From positions 1-11,335 of the IMG/VR virus record IMGVR_UViG_3300015174_000004: a stretch of DNA of 11,335 nucleotides. One strand, written 5' to 3'. Shown piece after piece: positions 1 through 11,335 of the stretch. A model generated the notes under the pieces. That model was not told the origin of the DNA. It worked only from the letters and a program-made list of their open reading frames with translations, and made no database searches. Position numbers and translations under genes: made by a program. The stretch is from a virus. Taxonomy: Duplodnaviria; Heunggongvirae; Uroviricota; Caudoviricetes. How positions within the stretch are numbered: the first letter of the stretch is position 1; each line of letters opens with the position of its first letter.

Positions 1-1077
1 GATGAATGGAACCAGCAGGAGGCCGCCCGCATTGCGACAGAAGCATACTCATCCTCAATGATCCAGCGCACCAACCAGATTAAAGAAAATCTTGGTTATC
101 TTGAGACTGCATGTAAAGCAGTCGCAAACTCCGCAAAATGGGCATGGGATTCCATGCTGGATATTGGCAGTGAGGCCTCCCTTGATCAAAAAATCTCAGA
201 TGTTCTACGTCAAATTGATGAAATAGAAAAAAATACCCGACCCGGAGTTTTCGGGTTAGGTGGCATTGGAGATGGCGGAGCTCAAAATAAAAAGCTGGCA
301 CGATTAAAGCAGCAATTGGGCGTACTTCAAGCAGAAAAAATTGCTCAGGACGTACTAAATTCATCAATAAACGATTACAACAAGCGACAACAGGAAGGAA
401 TTGAACTCAGACAGAGAGCAGATGCTTTTTCAAAACAATATCAGACCCGGGAGCAGCAGAGAGCTAGTGAACTTGCAAAACTGGAAAAGCTAAAGAATCA
501 GTATTCAAAGGAAGAATATAATAATCTTATCGCTCAAATAAATGAGCGTTATAAAGATCCAAAGCAACCAAAGGCGAAAGGTTATTCGGATGATGCTGCC
601 CAACGAGTGATTGATCATCTGAATCAACAGAATGCGTTACTAAGTTCACAAGCTGAATTGACCGTTAAATTAAGTTCCTCTGAACAGGAACTGGTTAAGT
701 GGCGTCAGCAGATTGCCGACCTGGAGTCACGACCGTCATCGAAATTAACCCAGGATCAGAAATCGCTTCTCTTACACCGGGAAGAAATAACCGCGTTGAT
801 GGAGAAAAATGTTGCGATTGAAAAAAATAACAGGCTAATCAAGGAATCCGCCGAAATAGCTGCATGGCGTGATTCATTGCAGGCTTCAATTGATAATCGT
901 CAGCAGGGGTATGATATTCAGATTGCTGGTTATGGGGTTGGCGATAAAAATCAGCAACGCCAGCAGGAATTACTGCGGATTGAACGTGAATATAACAATC
1001 AGCGTCTGCAACTTGAACGTGACTATGCAGATAAATCCCGTGGGATGTCAAATCATGTTTTTCAGGAGAAAATGTAG
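1..1077 (+). CDS. Phage tail tape measure protein, 5'-partial; reading frame is closed by an in-frame TAG at 1075-1077
   Basis: Frame 1 is open from base 1 (the gene starts upstream of the window). The translation is rich in Q/E/K/R with coiled-coil character, typical of tape measure proteins, and it sits immediately upstream of the M-L-K-I-J tail-tip genes. The region is AT-rich compared with L-J. Confidence 0.7.
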   Translation, partial: DEWNQQEAARIATEAYSSSMIQRTNQIKENLGYLETACKAVANSAKWAWDSMLDIGSEASLDQKISDVLRQIDEIEKNTRPGVFGLGGIGDGGAQNKKLARLKQQLGVLQAEKIAQDVLNSSINDYNKRQQEGIELRQRADAFSKQYQTREQQRASELAKLEKLKNQYSKEEYNNLIAQINERYKDPKQPKAKGYSDDAAQRVIDHLNQQNALLSSQAELTVKLSSSEQELVKWRQQIADLESRPSSKLTQDQKSLLLHREEITALMEKNVAIEKNNRLIKESAEIAAWRDSLQASIDNRQQGYDIQIAGYGVGDKNQQRQQELLRIEREYNNQRLQLERDYADKSRGMSNHVFQEKM

Positions 1078-1242
1078 GCTCTGAATGATGCTCTGGAACG
1101 AGAAAAAGAAATTGTCAGACAGAAAAACGAGCAGCTCGATATTCAGGCAGGAGACTGGGTTAGTGGTGCCTCCCAGGGATTCAATAACTGGCTGGATGAC
1201 ACTAAGGATATCAGTGAGCAGATAAAATCAACCACGACTCAG

Positions 1243-1812
1243 ATGTTTGATGGAATGACCGATGCGCTGGGTGATTTTGTCACGACAGGCAAGGCAAATT
1301 TTCGTTCTTTCGCTACTTCCGTGATTTCGGATCTTAGTCGAATAGCATTAAAGGCTTCAATTACTGGGATTTTCGACAGCATTAGTAACAGTTCTTCGGG
1401 GGGGATTTTAGGAACTATCGGGAGTGCTATTAGTAAATTTATTCCGAATGCAAAGGGCGGTGTTTATGAGTCTCCGTCATTGAACACGTATTCGAACGGT
1501 ATTTATGATTCCCCGCAATTTTTTGCTTTTGCAAAAGGGGCTGGTGTTTTTGGTGAGGCTGGTCCGGAAGCCATTATGCCATTAACACGAACTTCCGATG
1601 GTTCTCTTGGTGTCAGAGCTATTAATTGTAAAAGTGGTAATGGAGGCGGAGATATTACCTATGCCCCTGTATACCAAATCACTATTCAAAATGACGGCCA
1701 GAATGGAGAGATTGGCCCTCAGGCAATAAAAGCACTTATGGGGATGGTTGATCAGCGGGTGCAGGGCAATCTGTTAAATATGCGACGTGATGGGGGAATG
1801 TTAAGTGGCTAA
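1243..1812 (+). CDS. Tape measure protein C-terminal segment, same frame as 1-1077; the in-frame continuation actually begins at 1078 directly after the TAG
   Basis: Frame 1 has no stop from 1078 to the TAA at 1810-1812. The translation is Gly/Ser-rich and hydrophobic, as expected for a tape measure C-terminus. There is no Shine-Dalgarno sequence before the ATG at 1243, so independent initiation is unlikely. Together with 1-1077 this looks like one gene interrupted by one amber codon. Confidence 0.6.
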   Translation: MFDGMTDALGDFVTTGKANFRSFATSVISDLSRIALKASITGIFDSISNSSSGGILGTIGSAISKFIPNAKGGVYESPSLNTYSNGIYDSPQFFAFAKGAGVFGEAGPEAIMPLTRTSDGSLGVRAINCKSGNGGGDITYAPVYQITIQNDGQNGEIGPQAIKALMGMVDQRVQGNLLNMRRDGGMLSG

Positions 1813-4194: not shown

Positions 4195-7100
4195 ATGGGT
4201 AAAGGCAGCAGTAAGGGGCATACCCCGCGCGAAGCGAAGGACAACCTGAAATCATCCCAGATGCTGAGCGTGATAGACGCCATCAGTGAAGGGCCGATTG
4301 AAGGTCCGGTGGACGGATTAAAAAGTGTGCTGCTGAATAGTACGCCGGTGCTGGACAGTGAGGGGAATACCAATATCTCCGGTGTCACGGTGGTGTTCCG
4401 GGCCGGTGAGCAGGAGCAGACACCGCCGGAGGGATTTGAATCCTCCGGCTCCGAGACGGTGCTGGGTACGGAAGTGAAGTACGACACGCCGATTACCCGG
4501 ACCATCACGTCTGCAAACATCGACCGTCTGCGCTTTACCTTCGGTGTGCAGGCACTGGTGGAAACCACCTCAAAGGGGGACCGGAATCCGTCGGAAGTCC
4601 GCCTGCTGGTTCAGATACAGCGTAACGGTGGCTGGGTGACGGAAAAAGACATCACCATTAAAGGCAAAACCACCTCGCAGTATCTGGCCTCGGTGGTGGT
4701 GGATAACCTGCCGCCGCGCCCGTTTAATATCCGGATGCGCAGGATGACGCCGGACAGCACCACAGACCAGCTGCAGAACAAAACGCTCTGGTCGTCATAC
4801 ACCGAAATCATCGATGTGAAACAGTGCTACCCGAACACGGCACTGGTCGGCGTACAGGTGGACTCGGAGCAGTTCGGCAGCCAGCAGGTGAGTCGTAATT
4901 ATCATCTTCGCGGGCGCATTCTGCAGGTGCCGTCGAACTATAACCCGCAGACGCGACAATACAGCGGTATCTGGGACGGAACGTTTAAGCCAGCATACAG
5001 CAACAACATGGCCTGGTGTCTGTGGGATATGCTGACCCATCCGCGCTACGGCATGGGAAAACGTCTTGGTGCGTCGGATGTGGATAAATGGGCGCTGTAT
5101 GTCATCGGCCAGTACTGCGACCAGTCGGTGCCGGACGGCTTTGGCGGCACGGAGCCGCGCATCACCTGTAATGCCTGGCTGACCACGCAGCGTAAGGCGT
5201 GGGATGTGCTCAGTGATTTCTGCTCGGCGATGCGCTGTATGCCGGTATGGAACGGGCAGACGCTGACGTTCGTGCAGGACCGACCATCAGATAAGGTGTG
5301 GACCTATAACCGCAGTAATGTGGTGATGCCGGATGATGGCGCGCCGTTCCGCTACAGCTTCAGCGCCCTGAAGGACCGCCATAATGCCGTTGAGGTGAAC
5401 TGGATTGACCCGAACAACGGCTGGGAGACGGCGACAGAGCTTGTTGAAGATACGCAGGCCATTGCCCGTTACGGTCGTAATGTCACGAAGATGGATGCCT
5501 TTGGCTGTACCAGCCGGGGGCAGGCACACCGCGCCGGGCTGTGGCTGATTAAAACGGAACTGCTGGAGACGCAGACCGTGGATTTCAGCGTGGGTGCTGA
5601 AGGGCTTCGCCATGTACCGGGCGATGTCATTGAAATCTGCGATGATGACTATGCCGGTATCAGCACCGGTGGTCGCGTGCTGGCGGTGAACAGCCAGACC
5701 CGGACGCTGACGCTCGACCGTGAAATCACGCTGCCATCCTCCGGTACCACGCTGATAAGCCTGGTTGACGGAAGTGGCAATCCGGTCAGCGTGGAGGTTC
5801 AGTCCGTCACCGACGGCGTGAAGGTAAAAGTGAGCCGTGTTCCTGACGGTGTTGCTGAATACAGCGTATGGGGGCTGAAGCTGCCGACGCTGCGCCAGCG
5901 ACTGTTCCGCTGCGTGAGTATCCGTGAGAACGACGACGGCACGTATGCCATCACCGCCGTGCAGCATGTGCCGGAAAAAGAAGCCATCGTGGATAACGGG
6001 GCGCACTTTGACGGCGACCAGAGCGGCACGGTGAATGGTGTCACGCCGCCAGCGGTGCAGCACCTGACCGCCGAAGTCACCGCAGACAGCGGGGAATATC
6101 AGGTGCTGGCGCGCTGGGACACGCCGAAGGTGGTGAAGGGCGTGAGCTTCCTGCTCCGTCTGACCGTAACAGCGGACGACGGCAGTGAGCGGCTGGTCAG
6201 CACGGCCCGGACGACGGAAACCACATACCGCTTCACGCAACTGGCGCTGGGGCGTTACACGCTGACAGTCCGGGCGGTAAATGCGTGGGGGCAGCAGGGC
6301 GATCCGGCATCGGTATCGTTCCGGATTGCGGCACCGGCAGCGCCTGTCACTATTGAACTGATACCAGGGTATTTTCAGATAACAGCGGTCCCGAAACTGG
6401 CTGTATATGACCCGACGGTGCAGTTTGAGTTCTGGTTCTCGGAAAAGCGGATTACCGATATCAGGCAGGTTGAAACCAGCGCGCGTTATCTTGGTACGGC
6501 GCTGTACTGGATAGCCGCCAGTAGCAATATTAAGCCGGGTTATGATTATTACTTTTATATCCGCAGCGTGAACACTGTTGGTAAATCGGCATTTGTGGAG
6601 GCCGTCGGTCGGGCGAGCGATGATGCGGAAGGTTATCTGAATTTTTATAAAGGGTTGATCAATAAAACGCATCTCGGCAAGGAACTGCTGGAAAACTTTG
6701 AGCTGACGGAAGATAACGCCAGCAAACTGGAGGAGTTTTCGAAAGAGTGGAAGGACGCTAACGATAAATGGAATGCCATGTGGGGCGTCAAAATTGAGCA
6801 GACCAAAGACGGCAAACATTATGTCGCGGGTATTGGCCTCAGCATGGAGGATACGGAGGAAGGCAAACTGAGCCAGTTCCTGGTTGCCGCTAACCGTATC
6901 GCGTTTATTGACCCGGCAAACGGGAATGAAACGCCGATGTTTGTGGCGCAGGGCAACCAGATATTCATGAACGACGTGTTCCTGAAACGCCTGACGGCCC
7001 CCACCATTACCAGCGGCGGTAATCCTCCGGCATTTTCCCTGACACCGGACGGGCGGCTGACGGCGAGAAATGCTGATATCAGCGGTAACGTGAATGCGAA

Positions 7101-7608
7101 CTCCGGGACGCTCAATAATGTCACGGTAAATGAAAACTGTACGATTAAGGGCATGCTGGAGGCGAACCAGGTCAGAGGTGACTTCGTTAAAACTGTATCC
7201 AAATCATTCCCGAAAAAGGCTGGTACGTGGGGTAACACGGAAACACCAAACGGGACGGTTACAGTCACCATTTACGATGATCATAACTTTGACCGCCAAA
7301 TCATTATTCCGCCCATTATTTTTAACGGTGTGGCGTATGACGATCCGGGGAGCGGTAATAACCCGGGAGGTACGCGATACACGGGTTATGGTTTTGAAGT
7401 TCGCAAAAATGGCGTATTAATCGCATCCAGAGAAACTAAAGGAGCCATTCCCGGTAGTTACAGTGCGGTTATTGATATGCCGAGTGGTGGTGGTAACGTC
7501 ACTCTGGAGTTTAAGATTTTCCAGAAAGGCAATCAGGGCGCAGGTAACATCACAGACTGTACGGTGATTGTGACCAAAAAAGCTGCTTCCGGTATCAGTA
7601 TCCGTTGA
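4195..7608 (+). CDS. J: Host specificity protein J (central tail fiber / tail tip), lambda gpJ-like
   Basis: A 1137-aa ORF with GGAG 8 nt upstream of its ATG. Its size, position after I, and N-terminal and central sequence are typical of lambda J. The last ~1 kb is visibly more AT-rich, consistent with an exchanged receptor-binding region. Confidence 0.9.
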
Positions 7609-7629
7609 AATATTTATAACCCCAATACG

Positions 7630-7657
7630 GGCGCCAGAAATGGCGCCTTTTTTATTT
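7630..7657 (+). terminator. Rho-independent terminator downstream of J
   Basis: GGCGCC-AGAAAT-GGCGCC forms a perfect GC-rich stem and is followed by TTTTTTATTT. It begins 22 nt after the J stop. Confidence 0.65.
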
Positions 7658-7668
7658 GTGGAGTGAGT

Positions 7669-10041
7669 ATGGCAGTACAGATTTCAGGTGTGCTGAAAGA
7701 TGGTGCGGGAAAACCAATACAGAACTGCACTATTCAACTGAAGGCAAAGCGTAACAGCACCACGGTACTGGTGAACACGGTGGCCTCTGAAAATCCGGAT
7801 GAAGCCGGGCGTTACAGCATGGATGTTGAGTATGGCCAGTACAGCGTTATCCTGCTGGTTGAAGGTTTTCCGCCTTCACATGCCGGAACCATTACCGTCT
7901 ATGAAGGTTCCAGACCAGGTACGCTGAATGATTTTCTCGGTGCCATGACGGAAGATGATGTCATGCCGGAGGCATTGCGTCGTTTTGAGGCAATGGTGGA
8001 AGAAGCGGCACGCAACGCTGAAGCCGCCTTTCAGAGCGCAGCGGCGGCAAAGAAATCCGAAGCTGCTGCGGCATCATCGAAGAACGCGGCGAAAAGCTCA
8101 GAAACGAATGCAGCTAACAGCGCACAGGCGGCAGCGGCCTCACAGACTGCATCGGCAAACTCCGCGACAGCAGCCCAAAAATCAGAAGCCAACGCGAAAA
8201 ATAGCGAAACAGCCGCAAAGACGAGCGAAACCAACGCGAAGTCCAGCCAGACGGCAGCGAAAACCAGCGAAACGAATGCCAAAGTCAGTGAAACTGCAGC
8301 GAAAAACAGCCAGGCTGCAGCAGCTGAAAGCGAGAGCGCAGCAGCCGGTTCTGCGACTTCAGCAGCTGGATTAGCAACTGCTGCGGCTAACAGCCAGAAA
8401 GCTGCGAAGGCGAGCGAAACTAACGCAAAGTCCAGCCAGACGGCAGCGAAGACCAGCGAAACGAATGCCAAAGCCAGCGAAACTGCGGCGAAAAGCAGTC
8501 AGGATGCAGCAGCCGAAAGCGAGAGTGCTGCAGCTGGTTCTGCAAGCGCGGCGGCTGCTTCTGCCACTGCATCAGCTAACAGTCAAAAAGCAGCAAAAAC
8601 CAGTGAAACCAACGCAAAGGTGAGCGAAACAGCGGCTGCGAACTCAGCGAAAGCATCGGCAGCAAGCCAGACGGCAGCTAAAGCAAGCGAAGATGCAGCC
8701 AGAGAGTACGCAAGCCAGGCTGCGGAGCCGTATAAATATGTCTTACAGCCGCTGCCTGATGTGTGGATACCATTTAACGATTCGCTGGATATGATTACGG
8801 GCTTTTCGCCGTCATATAAAAAGATTGTTATTGGTGATGATGAAATAACGATGCCTGGCGACAAGGTTGTTAAGTTTAAACGCGCATCGAAAGCAACCTA
8901 TATTAATAAATCTGGTGTGCTGACAGAGGCTGCCATTGACGAGCCACGGTTTGAACGTGATGGCCTGCTTATTGAGGGGCAAAGAACGAACTACATGCTC
9001 AATTCGGAAAGCCCTGCCAGTTGGGGGCGATCGTCAAATATGGATGTGCCCGAAACCGGGACGGATAGTTTTGGTTTTACCTATGGAAAGTTTGTCTGTA
9101 ACGATTCTCTGATTGGGCAAACCTCAGCCATTAATATGGCATCAATTGCTGCAACAAAGTCAGTTGATGTCTCAGGCGATAATAAACACGTGACAACCTC
9201 ATGTCGTTTTAAAACAGAACTGCAGGTAAGGTTGCGTATCCGGTTTGATAAATATGACGGTAGCGCAACAACTTTTCTTGGTGATGCGTATATTGATACA
9301 CAAACGCTTGAAATTAATATGACAGGCGGTGCTGCCTCAAGGATTACAGCGAGAGTCAGAAAGGACGAAGCTACCGGATGGATTTTTGCAGAGGCAACAA
9401 TTCAGGCAATTGATGGGGAGTTAAAAATAGGTTCTCAGATACAGTATTCTCCTAAGCAGGGCGGGGCAACCGTATCTGGTGACTATATTTATCTGGCCAC
9501 CCCACAAGTAGAAAATGGGCCTTGTGTATCATCTTTTATTATATCAGGAACGACGGCGGCGACCCGCGCAAGCGATATAGTTACAGTTCCAATTAAGAAT
9601 AATCTTTATAATCTTCCTTTTACGGTTCTTTGTGAGGTACATAAGAACTGGTATAAAACGCCAAATGCAGCGCCGCGTGTTTTTGACACCGGCGGTCATC
9701 AAACCGGAGCGGCTATTATTCTTGGCTTCGGTTCTTCAGCAGATTACGACGGATTTCCTTATTGCGATATTGGAGGAGCTAACAGACGGGTAAACGAAAA
9801 CGCATCGCTTGAAAAAATGGTTATGGGGATGCGTGTAAAGTCAGATCAGTCTACGTGCTCAGCAAGTAACGGGCGTATATCCAGCGAAACAAAAACCACA
9901 TGGTCCTGTATTCAGAACACCGCAATTATCCGTATTGGAGGCCAGACTACAGCCGGGTTACGTCATTTATTTGGTCATGTCAGGAATTTCAGAATATGGC
10001 ACAAGGCATTGACTGATGCTCAGGTGGGGGAGTCAATCTAA
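7669..10041 (+). CDS. stf: Side tail fiber protein: Stf-like N-terminus, Ala/Ser/Thr-rich repeat shaft, and a C-terminal domain with a LamG/concanavalin-like signature
   Basis: The ATG at 7669 is preceded by GGAG (7660-7663). The N-terminus (MAVQISGVLKDGAGKPIQNCTIQLKAKRNSTTV...GRYSMDVEYGQYSVIL) resembles lambda Stf. The middle is built from 7-aa repeats. The C-terminus ends in ...LFGHVRNFRIWHKALTDAQVGESI, which looks like the terminal strand of a LamG-like jelly-roll; this is a motif-level inference. The six-frame track starts at GTG 7663, but the ATG at 7669 is more likely. Confidence 0.85.
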   Translation: MAVQISGVLKDGAGKPIQNCTIQLKAKRNSTTVLVNTVASENPDEAGRYSMDVEYGQYSVILLVEGFPPSHAGTITVYEGSRPGTLNDFLGAMTEDDVMPEALRRFEAMVEEAARNAEAAFQSAAAAKKSEAAAASSKNAAKSSETNAANSAQAAAASQTASANSATAAQKSEANAKNSETAAKTSETNAKSSQTAAKTSETNAKVSETAAKNSQAAAAESESAAAGSATSAAGLATAAANSQKAAKASETNAKSSQTAAKTSETNAKASETAAKSSQDAAAESESAAAGSASAAAASATASANSQKAAKTSETNAKVSETAAANSAKASAASQTAAKASEDAAREYASQAAEPYKYVLQPLPDVWIPFNDSLDMITGFSPSYKKIVIGDDEITMPGDKVVKFKRASKATYINKSGVLTEAAIDEPRFERDGLLIEGQRTNYMLNSESPASWGRSSNMDVPETGTDSFGFTYGKFVCNDSLIGQTSAINMASIAATKSVDVSGDNKHVTTSCRFKTELQVRLRIRFDKYDGSATTFLGDAYIDTQTLEINMTGGAASRITARVRKDEATGWIFAEATIQAIDGELKIGSQIQYSPKQGGATVSGDYIYLATPQVENGPCVSSFIISGTTAATRASDIVTVPIKNNLYNLPFTVLCEVHKNWYKTPNAAPRVFDTGGHQTGAAIILGFGSSADYDGFPYCDIGGANRRVNENASLEKMVMGMRVKSDQSTCSASNGRISSETKTTWSCIQNTAIIRIGGQTTAGLRHLFGHVRNFRIWHKALTDAQVGESI
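8221..8598 (+). repeat. Two tandem 189-bp (63-aa) imperfect direct repeats inside stf, each built from nine 21-bp (7-aa) sub-repeats; degenerate copies extend from about 8040 to 8700
   Basis: Unit 1 (8221-8409) encodes TSETNAKSSQTAAKTSETNAKVSETAAKNSQAAAAESESAAAGSATSAAGLATAAANSQKAAK. Unit 2 (8410-8598) encodes ASETNAKSSQTAAKTSETNAKASETAAKSSQDAAAESESAAAGSASAAAASATASANSQKAAK. A third, partial unit starts at 8599. Confidence 0.8.
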
Positions 10042-10322
10042 TGAAAGATTTAACACTCAAATTTGAAGACAGGGCCGACTTTTCGGCCTTTATGGAGAGT
10101 ATTGGCTATTATGATGACGAGTCGATGCAGGATGATATTCTTATCGACGTGATAGGTAACGCGTACAAAGAAACCGGAGAACTGACTGAAGATGGCGAAC
10201 CGGTATGTGTTAAGGAAGACGGATATTTTGTAAACGTGCGCATCATTAATGATTCGCAAATATCGTCATTATTCGATGAGTACGTGGTTGCTGTTGAGCA
10301 TCAACTTCGTGGCTGGATGTGA
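10041..10322 (+). CDS. Hypothetical small, highly acidic protein (93 aa) of unknown function, translationally coupled to both neighbours
   Basis: Its ATG overlaps the stf stop as TAATG (10039-10043). Its TGA stop (10320-10322) lies inside the Shine-Dalgarno sequence (GAGGAAG) of the next gene. It has roughly 22 Asp/Glu against about 8 basic residues. I recognise no homologue. Confidence 0.55.
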   Translation: MKDLTLKFEDRADFSAFMESIGYYDDESMQDDILIDVIGNAYKETGELTEDGEPVCVKEDGYFVNVRIINDSQISSLFDEYVVAVEHQLRGWM

Positions 10323-10331
10323 GGAAGAAAA

Positions 10332-11268
10332 ATGGCTACATCGACAGTAATTCCTGATGACATCAAAACGCTAAAATCCGACGTTAGCAAATTAAAAAAC
10401 GATCAAGGAAGCTACGCAACAAAATTATATGTAGACAGCAAAGATGAAATCGTTGGTGACTGGTCTGCTTCATGGTATCAGCAGGTATTGCCAACTAGCG
10501 GAGCTATATTTGGGAGAAAACTCCGCTCAACTCACAGGACGGCAGGTGTTGAGGATGCGTATTGCGAACTATACCTCAAAAAATGGATAGACAGTCCAGG
10601 TAACGCAATGGCGCGCCTTAACCTGAACGATAACGGGACAAACATTTGCTGGGACTTTACCAACCTTTATGGCGGTACGATGATTTTTCCCGGTGACAGC
10701 GGATACCTCAAAATGGGTAACTGCCTTATGTCATACAGCAAGCGTGGAAGTAACGCGCTTATTAAATTTGATTACACCGACACATTACAGATCAAATATG
10801 CCAATCATGGGTCAACCATTACATTAAACACACAGGTAACCGCTTATGCTGGTGTTACTGCTCAATTGTGGGGCAACTCCAGCCGTCCTGTTGTTTATGA
10901 AGTCGGTGTTGATGGTGGCGCTTATATGTTCTATGCGCAGAAAAATACCGATAACACCTATATGTTAAGCGTTAATGGTGCATGTCATGCCACAGCATTT
11001 AACCAGCATTCAGACCGGGATCTGAAAGACAACATTCAGGTGATCGATAAAGCAACCGACCACATCCGTAAAATGAACGGCTATACATACACGCTTAAAG
11101 AAAACGGTATGCCCTATGCTGGTGTCATTGCACAGGAAGCTCTGGAAGCAATCCCAGAAGTTGTAGGTTCCGCAATGAAATATCAGGACGGTGCAAGCGG
11201 ATCGGAAGGTGAAGAAGGTGAACGTTATTACACAGTAGATTATTCTGGTGTTACTGGCTTGCTTGTTC
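10332..11268 (+). CDS. Short tail fiber / receptor-binding-like protein with a C-terminal intramolecular chaperone (peptidase S74-like) domain; 3'-truncated at the end of native sequence
   Basis: The ATG at 10332 follows GAGGAAG. The C-terminal region (HSDRDLKDNIQVIDKATDHIRKMNGYTYTL...YAGVIAQEALEAIPEVV) matches the hallmark of endosialidase/T5 pb1-type self-cleaving chaperone domains. It has a Ser-x4-Lys pair (S227 at 11010-11012, K232 at 11025-11027). The apparent end of the ORF (IGRASCRERV, stop at 11301-11303) is encoded by adapter sequence, so the true C-terminus is missing. Confidence 0.7.
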
Positions 11269-11335
11269 AGATCGGAAGAGCGTCGTGTAGGGAAAGAGTG
11301 TAGATCTCGGTGGTCGCCGTATCATTAAAAAAAAA
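11269..11335 (+). other. Non-biological sequence: Illumina TruSeq adapter read-through (11269-11326) followed by a 9-nt poly-A (11327-11335)
   Basis: The 58 nt AGATCGGAAGAGCGTCGTGTAGGGAAAGAGTGTAGATCTCGGTGGTCGCCGTATCATT is the standard Illumina adapter-trimming sequence, which is the reverse complement of the universal P5 adapter. It is followed by nine A's at the contig terminus. Confidence 0.92.

What the first reader, a model, noticed from the sequence alone, without database searches (positions are those of the whole stretch)
8040..8700. Hierarchical repeat array (21-bp units within 189-bp units) in the Stf shaft
The two 189-bp units are about 85-90% identical at the DNA level and in frame. 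Unequal recombination or slippage between them would add or remove 63-aa blocks and change fiber length without breaking the frame. The same repetitiveness makes short-read assemblies prone to collapsing or expanding this region.
Basis: seen in the sequence. Interest (0 to 1): 0.4.

Follow-up and report, generated by a model that had tools for sequence, protein, structure and literature searches.

The report
Duplicated heptad blocks in Stf shaft
The repeat is real but ordinary: it encodes the heptad-repeat helical rod of a lambda-type phage side tail fibre, in which an old 63-residue duplication has occasionally been lost again in frame in related E. coli prophages.

Summary
Nt 8002-8730 of the stf-like gene (7669-10041, +) encode about 34 in-register heptads, [A/N]-A-[K/A]-x-S-[E/Q/A]-x. 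Within them are two tandem 189-nt (63-codon) units, 8200-8388 and 8389-8577, plus a partial third. The units are 82% identical in DNA (52/63 aa), not 85-90%, and their longest shared exact run is 23 nt.

The array is the counterpart of the proximal trimeric coiled coil of Ur-lambda Stf. It lies between the PF08400 collar domain and a different beta-sandwich distal module.

The duplication is old and the units are orthologous across alleles. Single-unit alleles exist. One of them (E. coli CB209) is 99.2% identical to phage Tritos stf apart from one exact 189-nt gap, and its breakpoint lies in a 47-nt stretch shared by the Tritos units. Alleles differing by -21 nt and -315 nt exist, and some alleles show conversion between units. 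Every length difference is a multiple of 7 aa. I found no three-unit allele.

The assembly-collapse worry is not supported. The array is 100% identical in a complete genome, and about 1,000 complete E. coli genomes carry the same-length array. The locus is known biology of low interest.

The parts
7669..10041 (+). stf-like side tail fibre gene (790 aa from the ATG at 7669; the ORF opens at GTG 7663), directly downstream of gene J (4195-7608)
   Evidence: ORF list and translation. PF08400 E=1.6e-66. phrog_1419 'tail protein' matched end to end. 97.7% nt identity to the phage Tritos gene annotated 'lambda phage stf protein homolog'.
7669..7950 (+). N-terminal collar domain (aa 1-94), which in Ur-lambda forms the dodecameric collar around the tail
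   Evidence: phmmer hit to PDB 9e7m/9mgh 'Tail fiber protein' residues 1-94, E=1.8e-49. Role taken from Yu et al. 2025, PMC12617516.
8002..8730 (+). Heptad array of about 34 in-register 21-nt/7-aa repeats, with Ala at position 2 (31/34) and Ser at position 5 (31/34). Predicted helical rod, the counterpart of the lambda Stf proximal coiled coil.
   Evidence: Heptad layout and position counts. Protein autocorrelation at lag 7 of 0.50. AF2 monomer helices at aa 99-219 and 236-350, at low confidence. Homology to lambda orf-401.
8200..8388 (+). 189-nt unit 1 (63 aa: five Lys/Glu-rich 'SETNAK'-type heptads followed by four Ala/Gly/Ser-rich heptads)
   Evidence: Orthologous to unit 1 of six other alleles (0-13 mismatches/189), against 27-35 mismatches to any unit 2.
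8389..8577 (+). 189-nt unit 2, 82% identical to unit 1
8578..8619 (+). Partial third copy (first two heptads resemble the start of a unit, then the sequence diverges)
   Evidence: TRF gives 2.2 copies ending at 8619. Unit 2 versus the next 189 nt is only 50% identical overall.
8239..8261 (+). Longest stretch identical between the two units in this allele (23 nt; partner at 8428-8450). It falls within the interval where the single-unit alleles have their inferred breakpoints.
   Evidence: Breakpoint intervals of 33-89 nt into the unit.
8758..10038 (+). Distal part of the fibre, unrelated to the lambda Stf tip. It includes a beta-sandwich domain at aa ~434-634.
   Evidence: NCBIfam NF048003 'phage head spike fiber domain', E=2.4e-13. 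AF2 pLDDT of 85-93 for aa 450-620. Foldseek hits to Pseudomonas phage Pa193/E217 tail fibre and CBM4/lectin folds.

Best explanation
The repeat array encodes the alpha-helical rod of a lambda-type side tail fibre. This rod is the counterpart of the proximal trimeric coiled coil of Ur-lambda Stf.

Shown: the 21-nt period is the DNA image of a protein heptad with small residues at the two core-spaced positions (Ala, Ser) and Glu-to-Lys pairs four residues apart. The 189-nt period records one old tandem duplication of a nine-heptad block. The two copies have since diverged by 18% and are orthologous across alleles. In nature the array changes length only in whole heptads. Observed changes are loss of one 63-aa block, loss of a single heptad between short direct repeats, a shorter class 15 heptads (105 aa) smaller, and partial conversion of one unit by the other. 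At least one block loss is recent.

Inferred: the rod is trimeric. Block loss occurs by unequal homologous exchange within the most similar stretch of the units. Each 63-aa block changes rod length by about 9 nm, out of roughly 35-37 nm. Length may affect how far the receptor-binding tip reaches from the tail.
For: Identity of the gene: PF08400 N-terminal domain; about 87% identity (by eye) to solved lambda Stf residues 1-94; 60% identity to lambda orf-401 over 286 aa, including shared AAKTSETNA motifs. Lambda residues 102-393 show the same lag-7 periodicity, and Yu et al. 2025 describe them as a trimeric proximal coiled coil.

Heptad anatomy: position 2 is Ala in 31/34 heptads, position 5 is Ser in 31/34, and position 4 is the most variable. 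AF2 predicts helix for aa 99-219 and 236-350.

The higher-order repeat is real.

Old single duplication: u1-u1 differ by 0-13, u2-u2 by 0-12, and u1-u2 by 27-35 mismatches per 189 nt across six alleles.

Length polymorphism in whole heptads: the anchor-to-anchor distance is 260, 253, 197 or 155 aa.

Recent loss: CB209 versus Tritos has 17 mismatches in 2184 nt, none in the last ~1600 nt, and one 189-nt gap. The breakpoint interval coincides with the 47-nt stretch identical between the Tritos units.

The three single-unit alleles are each closest to a different two-unit lineage.

Conversion: in E400634 and SBF22 the 3' third of unit 1 is unit-2-like, with an 82-nt exact run.

Slippage: the -21-nt allele is flanked by GCAGCC repeats.

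Recombination thresholds: the minimal efficient pairing segment is 31-34 bp for RecA and 23-27 bp for Red-beta, and phage recombinases tolerate 12-17% divergence (De Paepe et al. 2014, PMC3945230).
Against: The trimeric coiled-coil state is not shown for this protein. The AF2 model is a monomer with a mean pLDDT of 48.8, and it breaks the helix at aa 220-235 with very low confidence. An Ala/Ser core is unusually small for a coiled coil. No three-unit allele was found, so only loss is documented, not gain. The independence of the three single-unit alleles could also reflect recombination between alleles rather than separate deletions. No data here link rod length to adsorption or host range. 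This copy sits in a prophage whose tape-measure gene carries an in-frame stop, so it may not currently build virions.
Confidence: 0.85

Rival explanations
1. The two-unit structure is an assembly artefact: a collapse or expansion of a repeat that short reads cannot resolve.
For: Many database homologues are 'partial' proteins cut at contig ends. The array occurs in a median of 2 and up to 10 places per genome, so stf genes do trouble assemblers.
Against: The two units share at most 23 identical nt and differ at 34/189 positions, so ordinary k-mers and 100-150-nt reads separate them. The 832-nt array region is 100% identical in the complete chromosome of E. coli TUM9803, and about 1,000 complete genomes carry a same-length array. 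Sequenced phages Tritos, HannyBb, PhiR63_1 and 2G7b have the same gene length. The truncated database proteins end at aa ~410-640, downstream of the array.
Confidence: 0.02
2. The array is a high-frequency contingency (phase- or length-variable) locus, in which slippage changes copy number often enough to act as a switch.
For: The repeats are tandem and in frame. Alleles of -21, -189 and -315 nt exist.
Against: The repeats are imperfect. The longest exact run at offsets 21 and 42 is 10 nt, and 23 nt at offset 189. Heptads encoding the same peptide differ at 1-6 synonymous sites. The units have stayed orthologous and 16-18% diverged across alleles. The same length is kept in about 1,000 genomes whose arrays are 85-100% identical. 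This is the pattern of rare events, not of a switch.
Confidence: 0.04
3. The 63-aa period has a structural or binding role of its own rather than being only a trace of duplication. For example, the alternation of Lys/Glu-rich and Ala/Gly-rich segments could form regularly spaced flexible points or docking sites along the rod.
For: Each unit has five charged 'SETNAK'-type heptads followed by four Ala/Gly/Ser heptads. AF2 confidence dips in both Ala/Gly segments, aa 219-240 and 282-293.
Against: Alleles with one unit, and alleles lacking the Ala/Gly segment altogether (the 155-aa class), occur in sequenced phages (IdasGreatGrand, PhiR40_1, Lambda_4C10), so neither the period nor the segment is required. 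Lambda Stf shows the heptad period but no comparable higher-order unit. The AF2 dips come from a low-confidence monomer model.
Confidence: 0.07
4. The region is a disordered low-complexity Ala/Ser linker rather than a rod, so its length has little geometric meaning.
For: Composition is dominated by Ala, Ser, Thr, Lys and Glu. AF2 pLDDT is only 45-69.
Against: The strict heptad register is kept over 34 repeats, and all natural indels are whole heptads. A disordered linker would not need this. DSSP helix runs throughout the model. The homologous lambda segment is seen as a stiff fibre by cryo-ET and as a trimeric bundle at its base by cryo-EM.
Confidence: 0.03

Closest known systems
[quoted passage not shown] 2025, Sci Adv, PMC12617516; PDB 9e7m/9mgh for residues 1-94)
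   Same: Same gene position after J. N-terminal collar domain about 87% identical. It is followed by an Ala/Ser-rich heptad segment with shared AAKTSETNA motifs and the same lag-7 periodicity.
   Different: The rod here is shorter, about 250 aa against 292 aa. It is much more regular (lag-7 autocorrelation 0.50 against 0.31) and carries a clear 63-aa duplication that lambda lacks. The distal half is unrelated to lambda's gp37-like tip: it is a beta-sandwich domain matching NF048003. The downstream gene is a 93-aa ORF of unknown function rather than tfa.
stf alleles of lambdoid phages Tritos, HannyBb, PhiR63_1, 2G7b and ev207, and the E. coli prophage genes annotated 'prophage tail fiber N-terminal domain-containing protein'
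   Same: 92-98% nt identity, the same length and the same two-unit array.
   Different: Only point differences. In this allele the units share a shorter exact run (23 nt) than in Tritos/ev207 (47 nt) or E400634 (82 nt).
Length-variable repeat shafts of other phage fibres, and mosaic stf evolution by relaxed homologous recombination (De Paepe et al. 2014, PMC3945230)
   Same: stf is a known hotspot of exchange between lambdoid phages and prophages. Phage Rad52-like recombinases work on short, diverged homologies of the size seen between the units.
   Different: That work concerns exchange between different genomes. Here the partners are two units inside one gene, and the outcome is a change of rod length rather than of receptor specificity.

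Membership tests
Lambda Stf-type side tail fibre | N-terminal 'prophage tail fibre N-terminal' collar domain (PF08400) | tested here: met
   PF08400 E=1.6e-66 over aa 3-133. E=1.8e-49 to lambda Stf residues 1-94 in PDB 9e7m.
Lambda Stf-type side tail fibre | Gene located just downstream of the central fibre gene J in a lambda-like tail module | tested here: met
   The order is tape-measure, M, L, K, I, J (4195-7608), then this gene at 7669. The same order is seen in Tritos and TUM9803. No lom gene lies between them here.
Lambda Stf-type side tail fibre | Long proximal coiled coil after a short linker | tested here: inconclusive
   The heptad register and helix prediction are met, and homology to the lambda segment is shown. 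The trimeric bundle itself could not be modelled with a single-chain predictor.
Lambda Stf-type side tail fibre | gp37-like distal tip, with a Tfa assembly chaperone encoded downstream | tested here: not met
   There is no similarity to lambda beyond aa ~290. The distal domain matches NF048003 and CBM/lectin-like folds. The downstream 93-aa ORF has no Pfam or NCBIfam match. The protein is therefore a member by its N-terminal half only.
Canonical alpha-helical coiled coil | Heptad repeat with conserved core positions a and d spaced 3 and 4 residues apart | tested here: met
   Position 2 is Ala in 31/34 heptads and position 5 is Ser in 31/34. Outward positions 4 and 7 are variable.
Canonical alpha-helical coiled coil | Large hydrophobic residues (Leu, Ile, Val) in the core | tested here: not met
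   The core-spaced positions carry Ala and Ser. This is a small-residue variant, as in lambda Stf.
Contingency locus / simple-sequence length switch | Near-perfect tandem repeats giving frequent copy-number change | tested here: not met
   Units are 82% identical. The longest exact runs are 10 nt at the heptad offset and 23 nt at the unit offset. Length is conserved in about 1,000 genomes.

The most novel reading that the evidence does not exclude
Loss of the 63-aa block, and possibly its regain or conversion, is recurrent and adaptive. On this reading, lambdoid phages tune the reach of their side fibres in steps of about 9 nm, or 1 nm for single heptads, to match the depth of the host's O-antigen or capsule layer. 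Rod length would then be a host-range or adsorption-rate determinant that evolves separately from the receptor-binding tip.
Probability: 0.15. Interest if true: 0.4.

Novelty: already known. Interest (0 to 1): 0.15.

Why it matters
The result mainly helps annotation. It explains a conspicuous DNA repeat as the heptad rod of a known fibre family, shows that the two-unit form is a true and common allele rather than an assembly error, and gives a worked example of in-frame block loss by unequal exchange. For people who engineer lambda-type particles with swapped side fibres, it indicates that the rod tolerates whole-heptad and 63-aa changes in nature, so fibre length could be varied deliberately. 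It does not open a new question.

Tried and rejected
1. A synthetic three-unit query (L-u1-[u2/u1]-u2-R, 767 nt) against 5,426 complete E. coli genomes. All 25 best-ranked rows were two-piece matches spanning 578 nt, which means two-unit alleles; none had three units. Only these best rows were inspected, so rare or diverged three-unit alleles are not excluded.

2. A single-unit query. The count of 'at least 80% covered' records (1,045) cannot be read as a count of single-unit alleles. Two hits I checked (1-364 and 1-342 coverage) turned out to be two-unit alleles with a unit-2-like unit 1. Only the five rows with 99% coverage (H116-H120) can be read as single-unit; H116 (AVS0655) and H117 (CB209) were checked directly, and H117 and H118 appear to be the same genome.

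3. A PDB sequence search found only the N-terminal 94 residues solved. No experimental structure of the rod exists.

4. The AF2 single-chain model has a mean pLDDT of 48.8. I used it only for secondary structure and for the confident aa 450-620 domain. The helix break at aa 220-235 was not interpreted.

5. Overlapping ORFs on the other strand and frame (8031-8471 -, 8583-8864 -, 7955-8374 +) have no Pfam match. I regard them as by-products of the GCN-rich codon periodicity. Lambda carries a similarly placed annotated 'orf206b'.

6. There is no Chi site (GCTGGTGG) anywhere in the window.

7. A literature search for alanine-rich heptad tail fibres returned nothing.

8. The direction of the -315-nt class (ancestral or deleted) could not be decided from the alleles in hand.
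Full report
**Setting.** The window is the tail module of a lambdoid E. coli phage or prophage. It runs from the tape-measure C-terminus through M, L, K and I to the central fibre gene J (4195-7608). Next comes a 790-aa gene at 7669-10041, then a 93-aa ORF (10041-10322) and a second fibre gene (10332-11303). The 790-aa protein starts with the 'prophage tail fibre N-terminal' domain PF08400 (E=1.6e-66). Its first 94 residues match the solved N-terminal domain of lambda Stf (PDB 9e7m/9mgh, E=1.8e-49). The gene is 97.7% identical to the gene of phage Tritos annotated as a lambda stf homologue. The array region is 100% identical to a prophage gene in the complete genome of E. coli TUM9803, which lies next to sitABCD.

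**Checking the observation.**
- Tandem Repeats Finder gives a 189-nt period at 8203-8619 (2.2 copies, 81% matches, no indels), with nested 21- and 42-nt periods. The repeat finder gives the same registers.
- In the best register, unit 1 is 8200-8388 and unit 2 is 8389-8577. Both are in frame. They share 155/189 nt (82%) and 52/63 aa, with 17 synonymous and 11 non-synonymous codon differences and a longest exact run of 23 nt.
- A central stretch of about 120 nt reaches roughly 90% identity, while the unit ends are more diverged.
- Offset-189 identity across the array is 0.63. The maximum was 0.46 in 500 codon shuffles and 0.619 in 2,000 shuffles of whole heptads, none of which reached the observed value. 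The 189-nt tier is therefore real and is not a side effect of the 21-nt tier.
- The heptad array runs from about 8002 to 8730, a little wider than the reported coordinates.

**What the repeat encodes.**
- Read in heptads, the protein is [A/N]-A-[K/A]-x-S-[E/Q/A]-x for 34 consecutive repeats.
- Position 2 is Ala in 31/34 and position 5 is Ser in 31/34. Position 4 is the most variable.
- The two conserved positions are spaced 3 and 4 residues apart, like the a and d positions of a coiled coil. Glu at position 6 lies four residues before Lys at position 3 of the next heptad.
- A single-chain AlphaFold2 model is of low confidence (mean pLDDT 48.8), but it is helical over aa 99-219 and 236-350.
- Lambda's own Stf N-terminal part (orf-401) aligns at 60% identity over 286 aa, with shared AAKTSETNA motifs. 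Its residues 102-393 show the same lag-7 periodicity, though more weakly (0.31 against 0.50).
- Yu et al. 2025 (PMC12617516) used cryo-EM, cryo-ET and AlphaFold3 on Ur-lambda Stf. They describe a collar domain (1-91), a flexible linker (92-101), a trimeric proximal coiled coil (102-393), a hinge and a distal part. Four trimeric fibres are anchored by a dodecameric collar.
- By homology, the array studied here is that proximal coiled coil. The trimeric state is inferred, not shown, for this protein.
- At about 0.15 nm per residue, the predicted helical span of about 250 aa gives a rod of roughly 35-37 nm. One 63-aa unit is about 9 nm and one heptad about 1 nm (my arithmetic).

**History of the 189-nt units.** I extracted the array from 15 further alleles in phages and complete E. 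coli genomes.
- Between two conserved anchors (EALRRFE and PLPDVW), the distance is 260 aa in two-unit alleles. It is 253 aa in one allele, 197 aa in three and 155 aa in three. Every difference is a whole number of heptads (1, 9 or 15).
- Across six two-unit alleles, unit 1 copies differ from each other by 0-13 nt and unit 2 copies by 0-12 nt. Any unit 1 differs from any unit 2 by 27-35 nt. A seventh two-unit allele, strain 54214 (85.8% identical), falls outside these ranges: its unit 1 differs from the other unit 1 copies by 61-65 nt.
- The duplication therefore happened once, before these alleles diverged. In most alleles the copies have evolved independently since then.

**Evidence for unit loss.**
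- Phage IdasGreatGrand and the E. coli strains AVS0655 and CB209 have exactly one unit.
- Over the whole gene, CB209 differs from Tritos by 17 of 2184 nt. There are no differences in the last ~1600 nt, and there is one exact 189-nt gap.
- The Tritos units differ from each other at 30 positions, so this cannot be a fresh duplication in Tritos. It is a recent loss in the CB209 lineage.
- I simulated a crossover at every position. The fit is best (6/606 mismatches) for breakpoints 33-80 nt into the unit, which is the 47-nt stretch identical between the Tritos units.
- The three single-unit alleles differ from each other by 28-33 of 606 nt. Each is closest to a different two-unit lineage, which suggests more than one loss. 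Exchange between alleles could give the same picture.

**Other changes in the array.**
- In strains E400634 and SBF22, the 3' third of unit 1 has become unit-2-like. The units there differ at only 16 positions and share an 82-nt exact run, as expected from conversion between units.
- Strain HMDUC-17 lacks one heptad. The deleted 21 nt are flanked by a GCAGCC direct repeat, as expected from slippage.
- A synthetic three-unit query did not retrieve any three-unit allele from 5,426 complete genomes. Gain is therefore not documented.

**How likely further change is in this allele.** De Paepe et al. 2014 (PMC3945230) give the minimal efficient pairing segment as 31-34 bp for RecA and 23-27 bp for Red-beta. 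They also report that phage recombinases tolerate 12-17% divergence. The window allele has a 23-nt longest run and 18% divergence between units. It is at the lower edge for a phage recombinase and below the RecA threshold, so it should be more stable than the Tritos-type (47 nt) or E400634-type (82 nt) alleles. No Chi site occurs in the window.

**Assembly concern.**
- The units share at most 23 identical nt, so standard assemblies separate them.
- The array is identical in TUM9803, and about 1,000 complete genomes carry a same-length array.
- Four sequenced phages have the same gene length.
- Database proteins that are cut by contig ends stop at aa ~410-640, downstream of the array.
- The real assembly difficulty with stf genes is that related copies sit in several prophages of one genome (median 2 places, up to 10).

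**Other strand and frames.** ORFs overlapping the array on the minus strand and in another plus frame have no family match. They are best explained by the GCN-rich codon periodicity. Lambda has a similarly placed annotated orf206b.

**Comparison and verdict.**
- The protein belongs to the lambda Stf family by its collar domain, gene position and heptad rod.
- Its distal half does not. It matches the 'phage head spike fiber' domain NF048003. A confident beta-sandwich (aa 450-620) resembles the tail fibre of Pseudomonas phages Pa193/E217 and carbohydrate-binding modules. The downstream gene is not tfa.
However, the object is a known protein family with near-identical sequences already in public phage records. 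Heptad rods and in-frame repeat changes in phage fibres are expected.
- I rate it as already known and of low interest.
- The most novel reading still open is that rod length is tuned adaptively in 1-nm and 9-nm steps to the host's surface layer. Nothing here tests that reading.

Noticed in passing
window 1-1812 (stop codon near 1075-1080): The tape-measure gene is interrupted by an in-frame stop ('...QEKM*ALND...'). The 100%-matching prophage in E. coli TUM9803 is annotated as a tape-measure pseudogene with an 'internal stop'. This prophage copy may therefore be unable to build tails.
   Followed up: partly
window 10332-11303 (+): A second fibre gene lies downstream. It encodes a 323-aa protein with a C-terminal Peptidase_S74 intramolecular chaperone domain (aa 227-278, E=1.6e-13) and matches phrog_4563 'tail fiber protein'. 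In TUM9803, CB209 and Tritos the corresponding gene is 1041 nt (346 aa), so the window copy ends differently.
   Followed up: no
window 10041-10322 (+): A 93-aa ORF overlaps the stf stop codon. It is conserved in Tritos, IdasGreatGrand, CB209 and TUM9803 (phrog_1361, unknown function) and has no Pfam or NCBIfam match. It sits where lambda has the fibre assembly gene tfa, so it may be an assembly factor for this fibre type.
   Followed up: no
window 8970-9570 (aa ~434-634 of Stf): The distal part of the fibre has a confidently predicted beta-sandwich domain. It matches NCBIfam 'phage head spike fiber domain' (NF048003). By fold it resembles the tail fibre of Pseudomonas phages Pa193/E217 and CBM4/legume-lectin modules, which hints at a glycan receptor. 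The last 170 residues could not be modelled because the alignment lacked cover there.
   Followed up: partly
L017 and L018 (E. coli E400634 and SBF22), array region: These are two-unit alleles in which the 3' third of unit 1 has been replaced by unit-2-like sequence. The units differ at only 16/189 positions and share an 82-nt exact run. This is evidence of conversion between the units in some lineages.
   Followed up: yes
window 7609-7668, between J and stf: No lom gene lies between J and stf here, nor in Tritos or TUM9803. IdasGreatGrand, PhiR40_1, CB209, E400634 and lambda itself carry lom at this position.
   Followed up: no
window 8031-8471 (-), 8583-8864 (-), 7955-8374 (+): Long overlapping ORFs lie on the opposite strand and in another frame of the array. 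They have no family match. Lambda has an annotated 'orf206b' in the equivalent antisense position. They are probably an effect of the GCN-rich periodic codons.
   Followed up: partly
E. coli complete genomes: The array region is found in 1,829 of 5,426 complete genomes, at a median of 2 and up to 10 places per genome, including 107 places on plasmids. In some genomes the match spans two annotated genes (an N-terminal-domain protein plus a 'head spike fiber domain' protein), which suggests split or rearranged stf genes.
   Followed up: no
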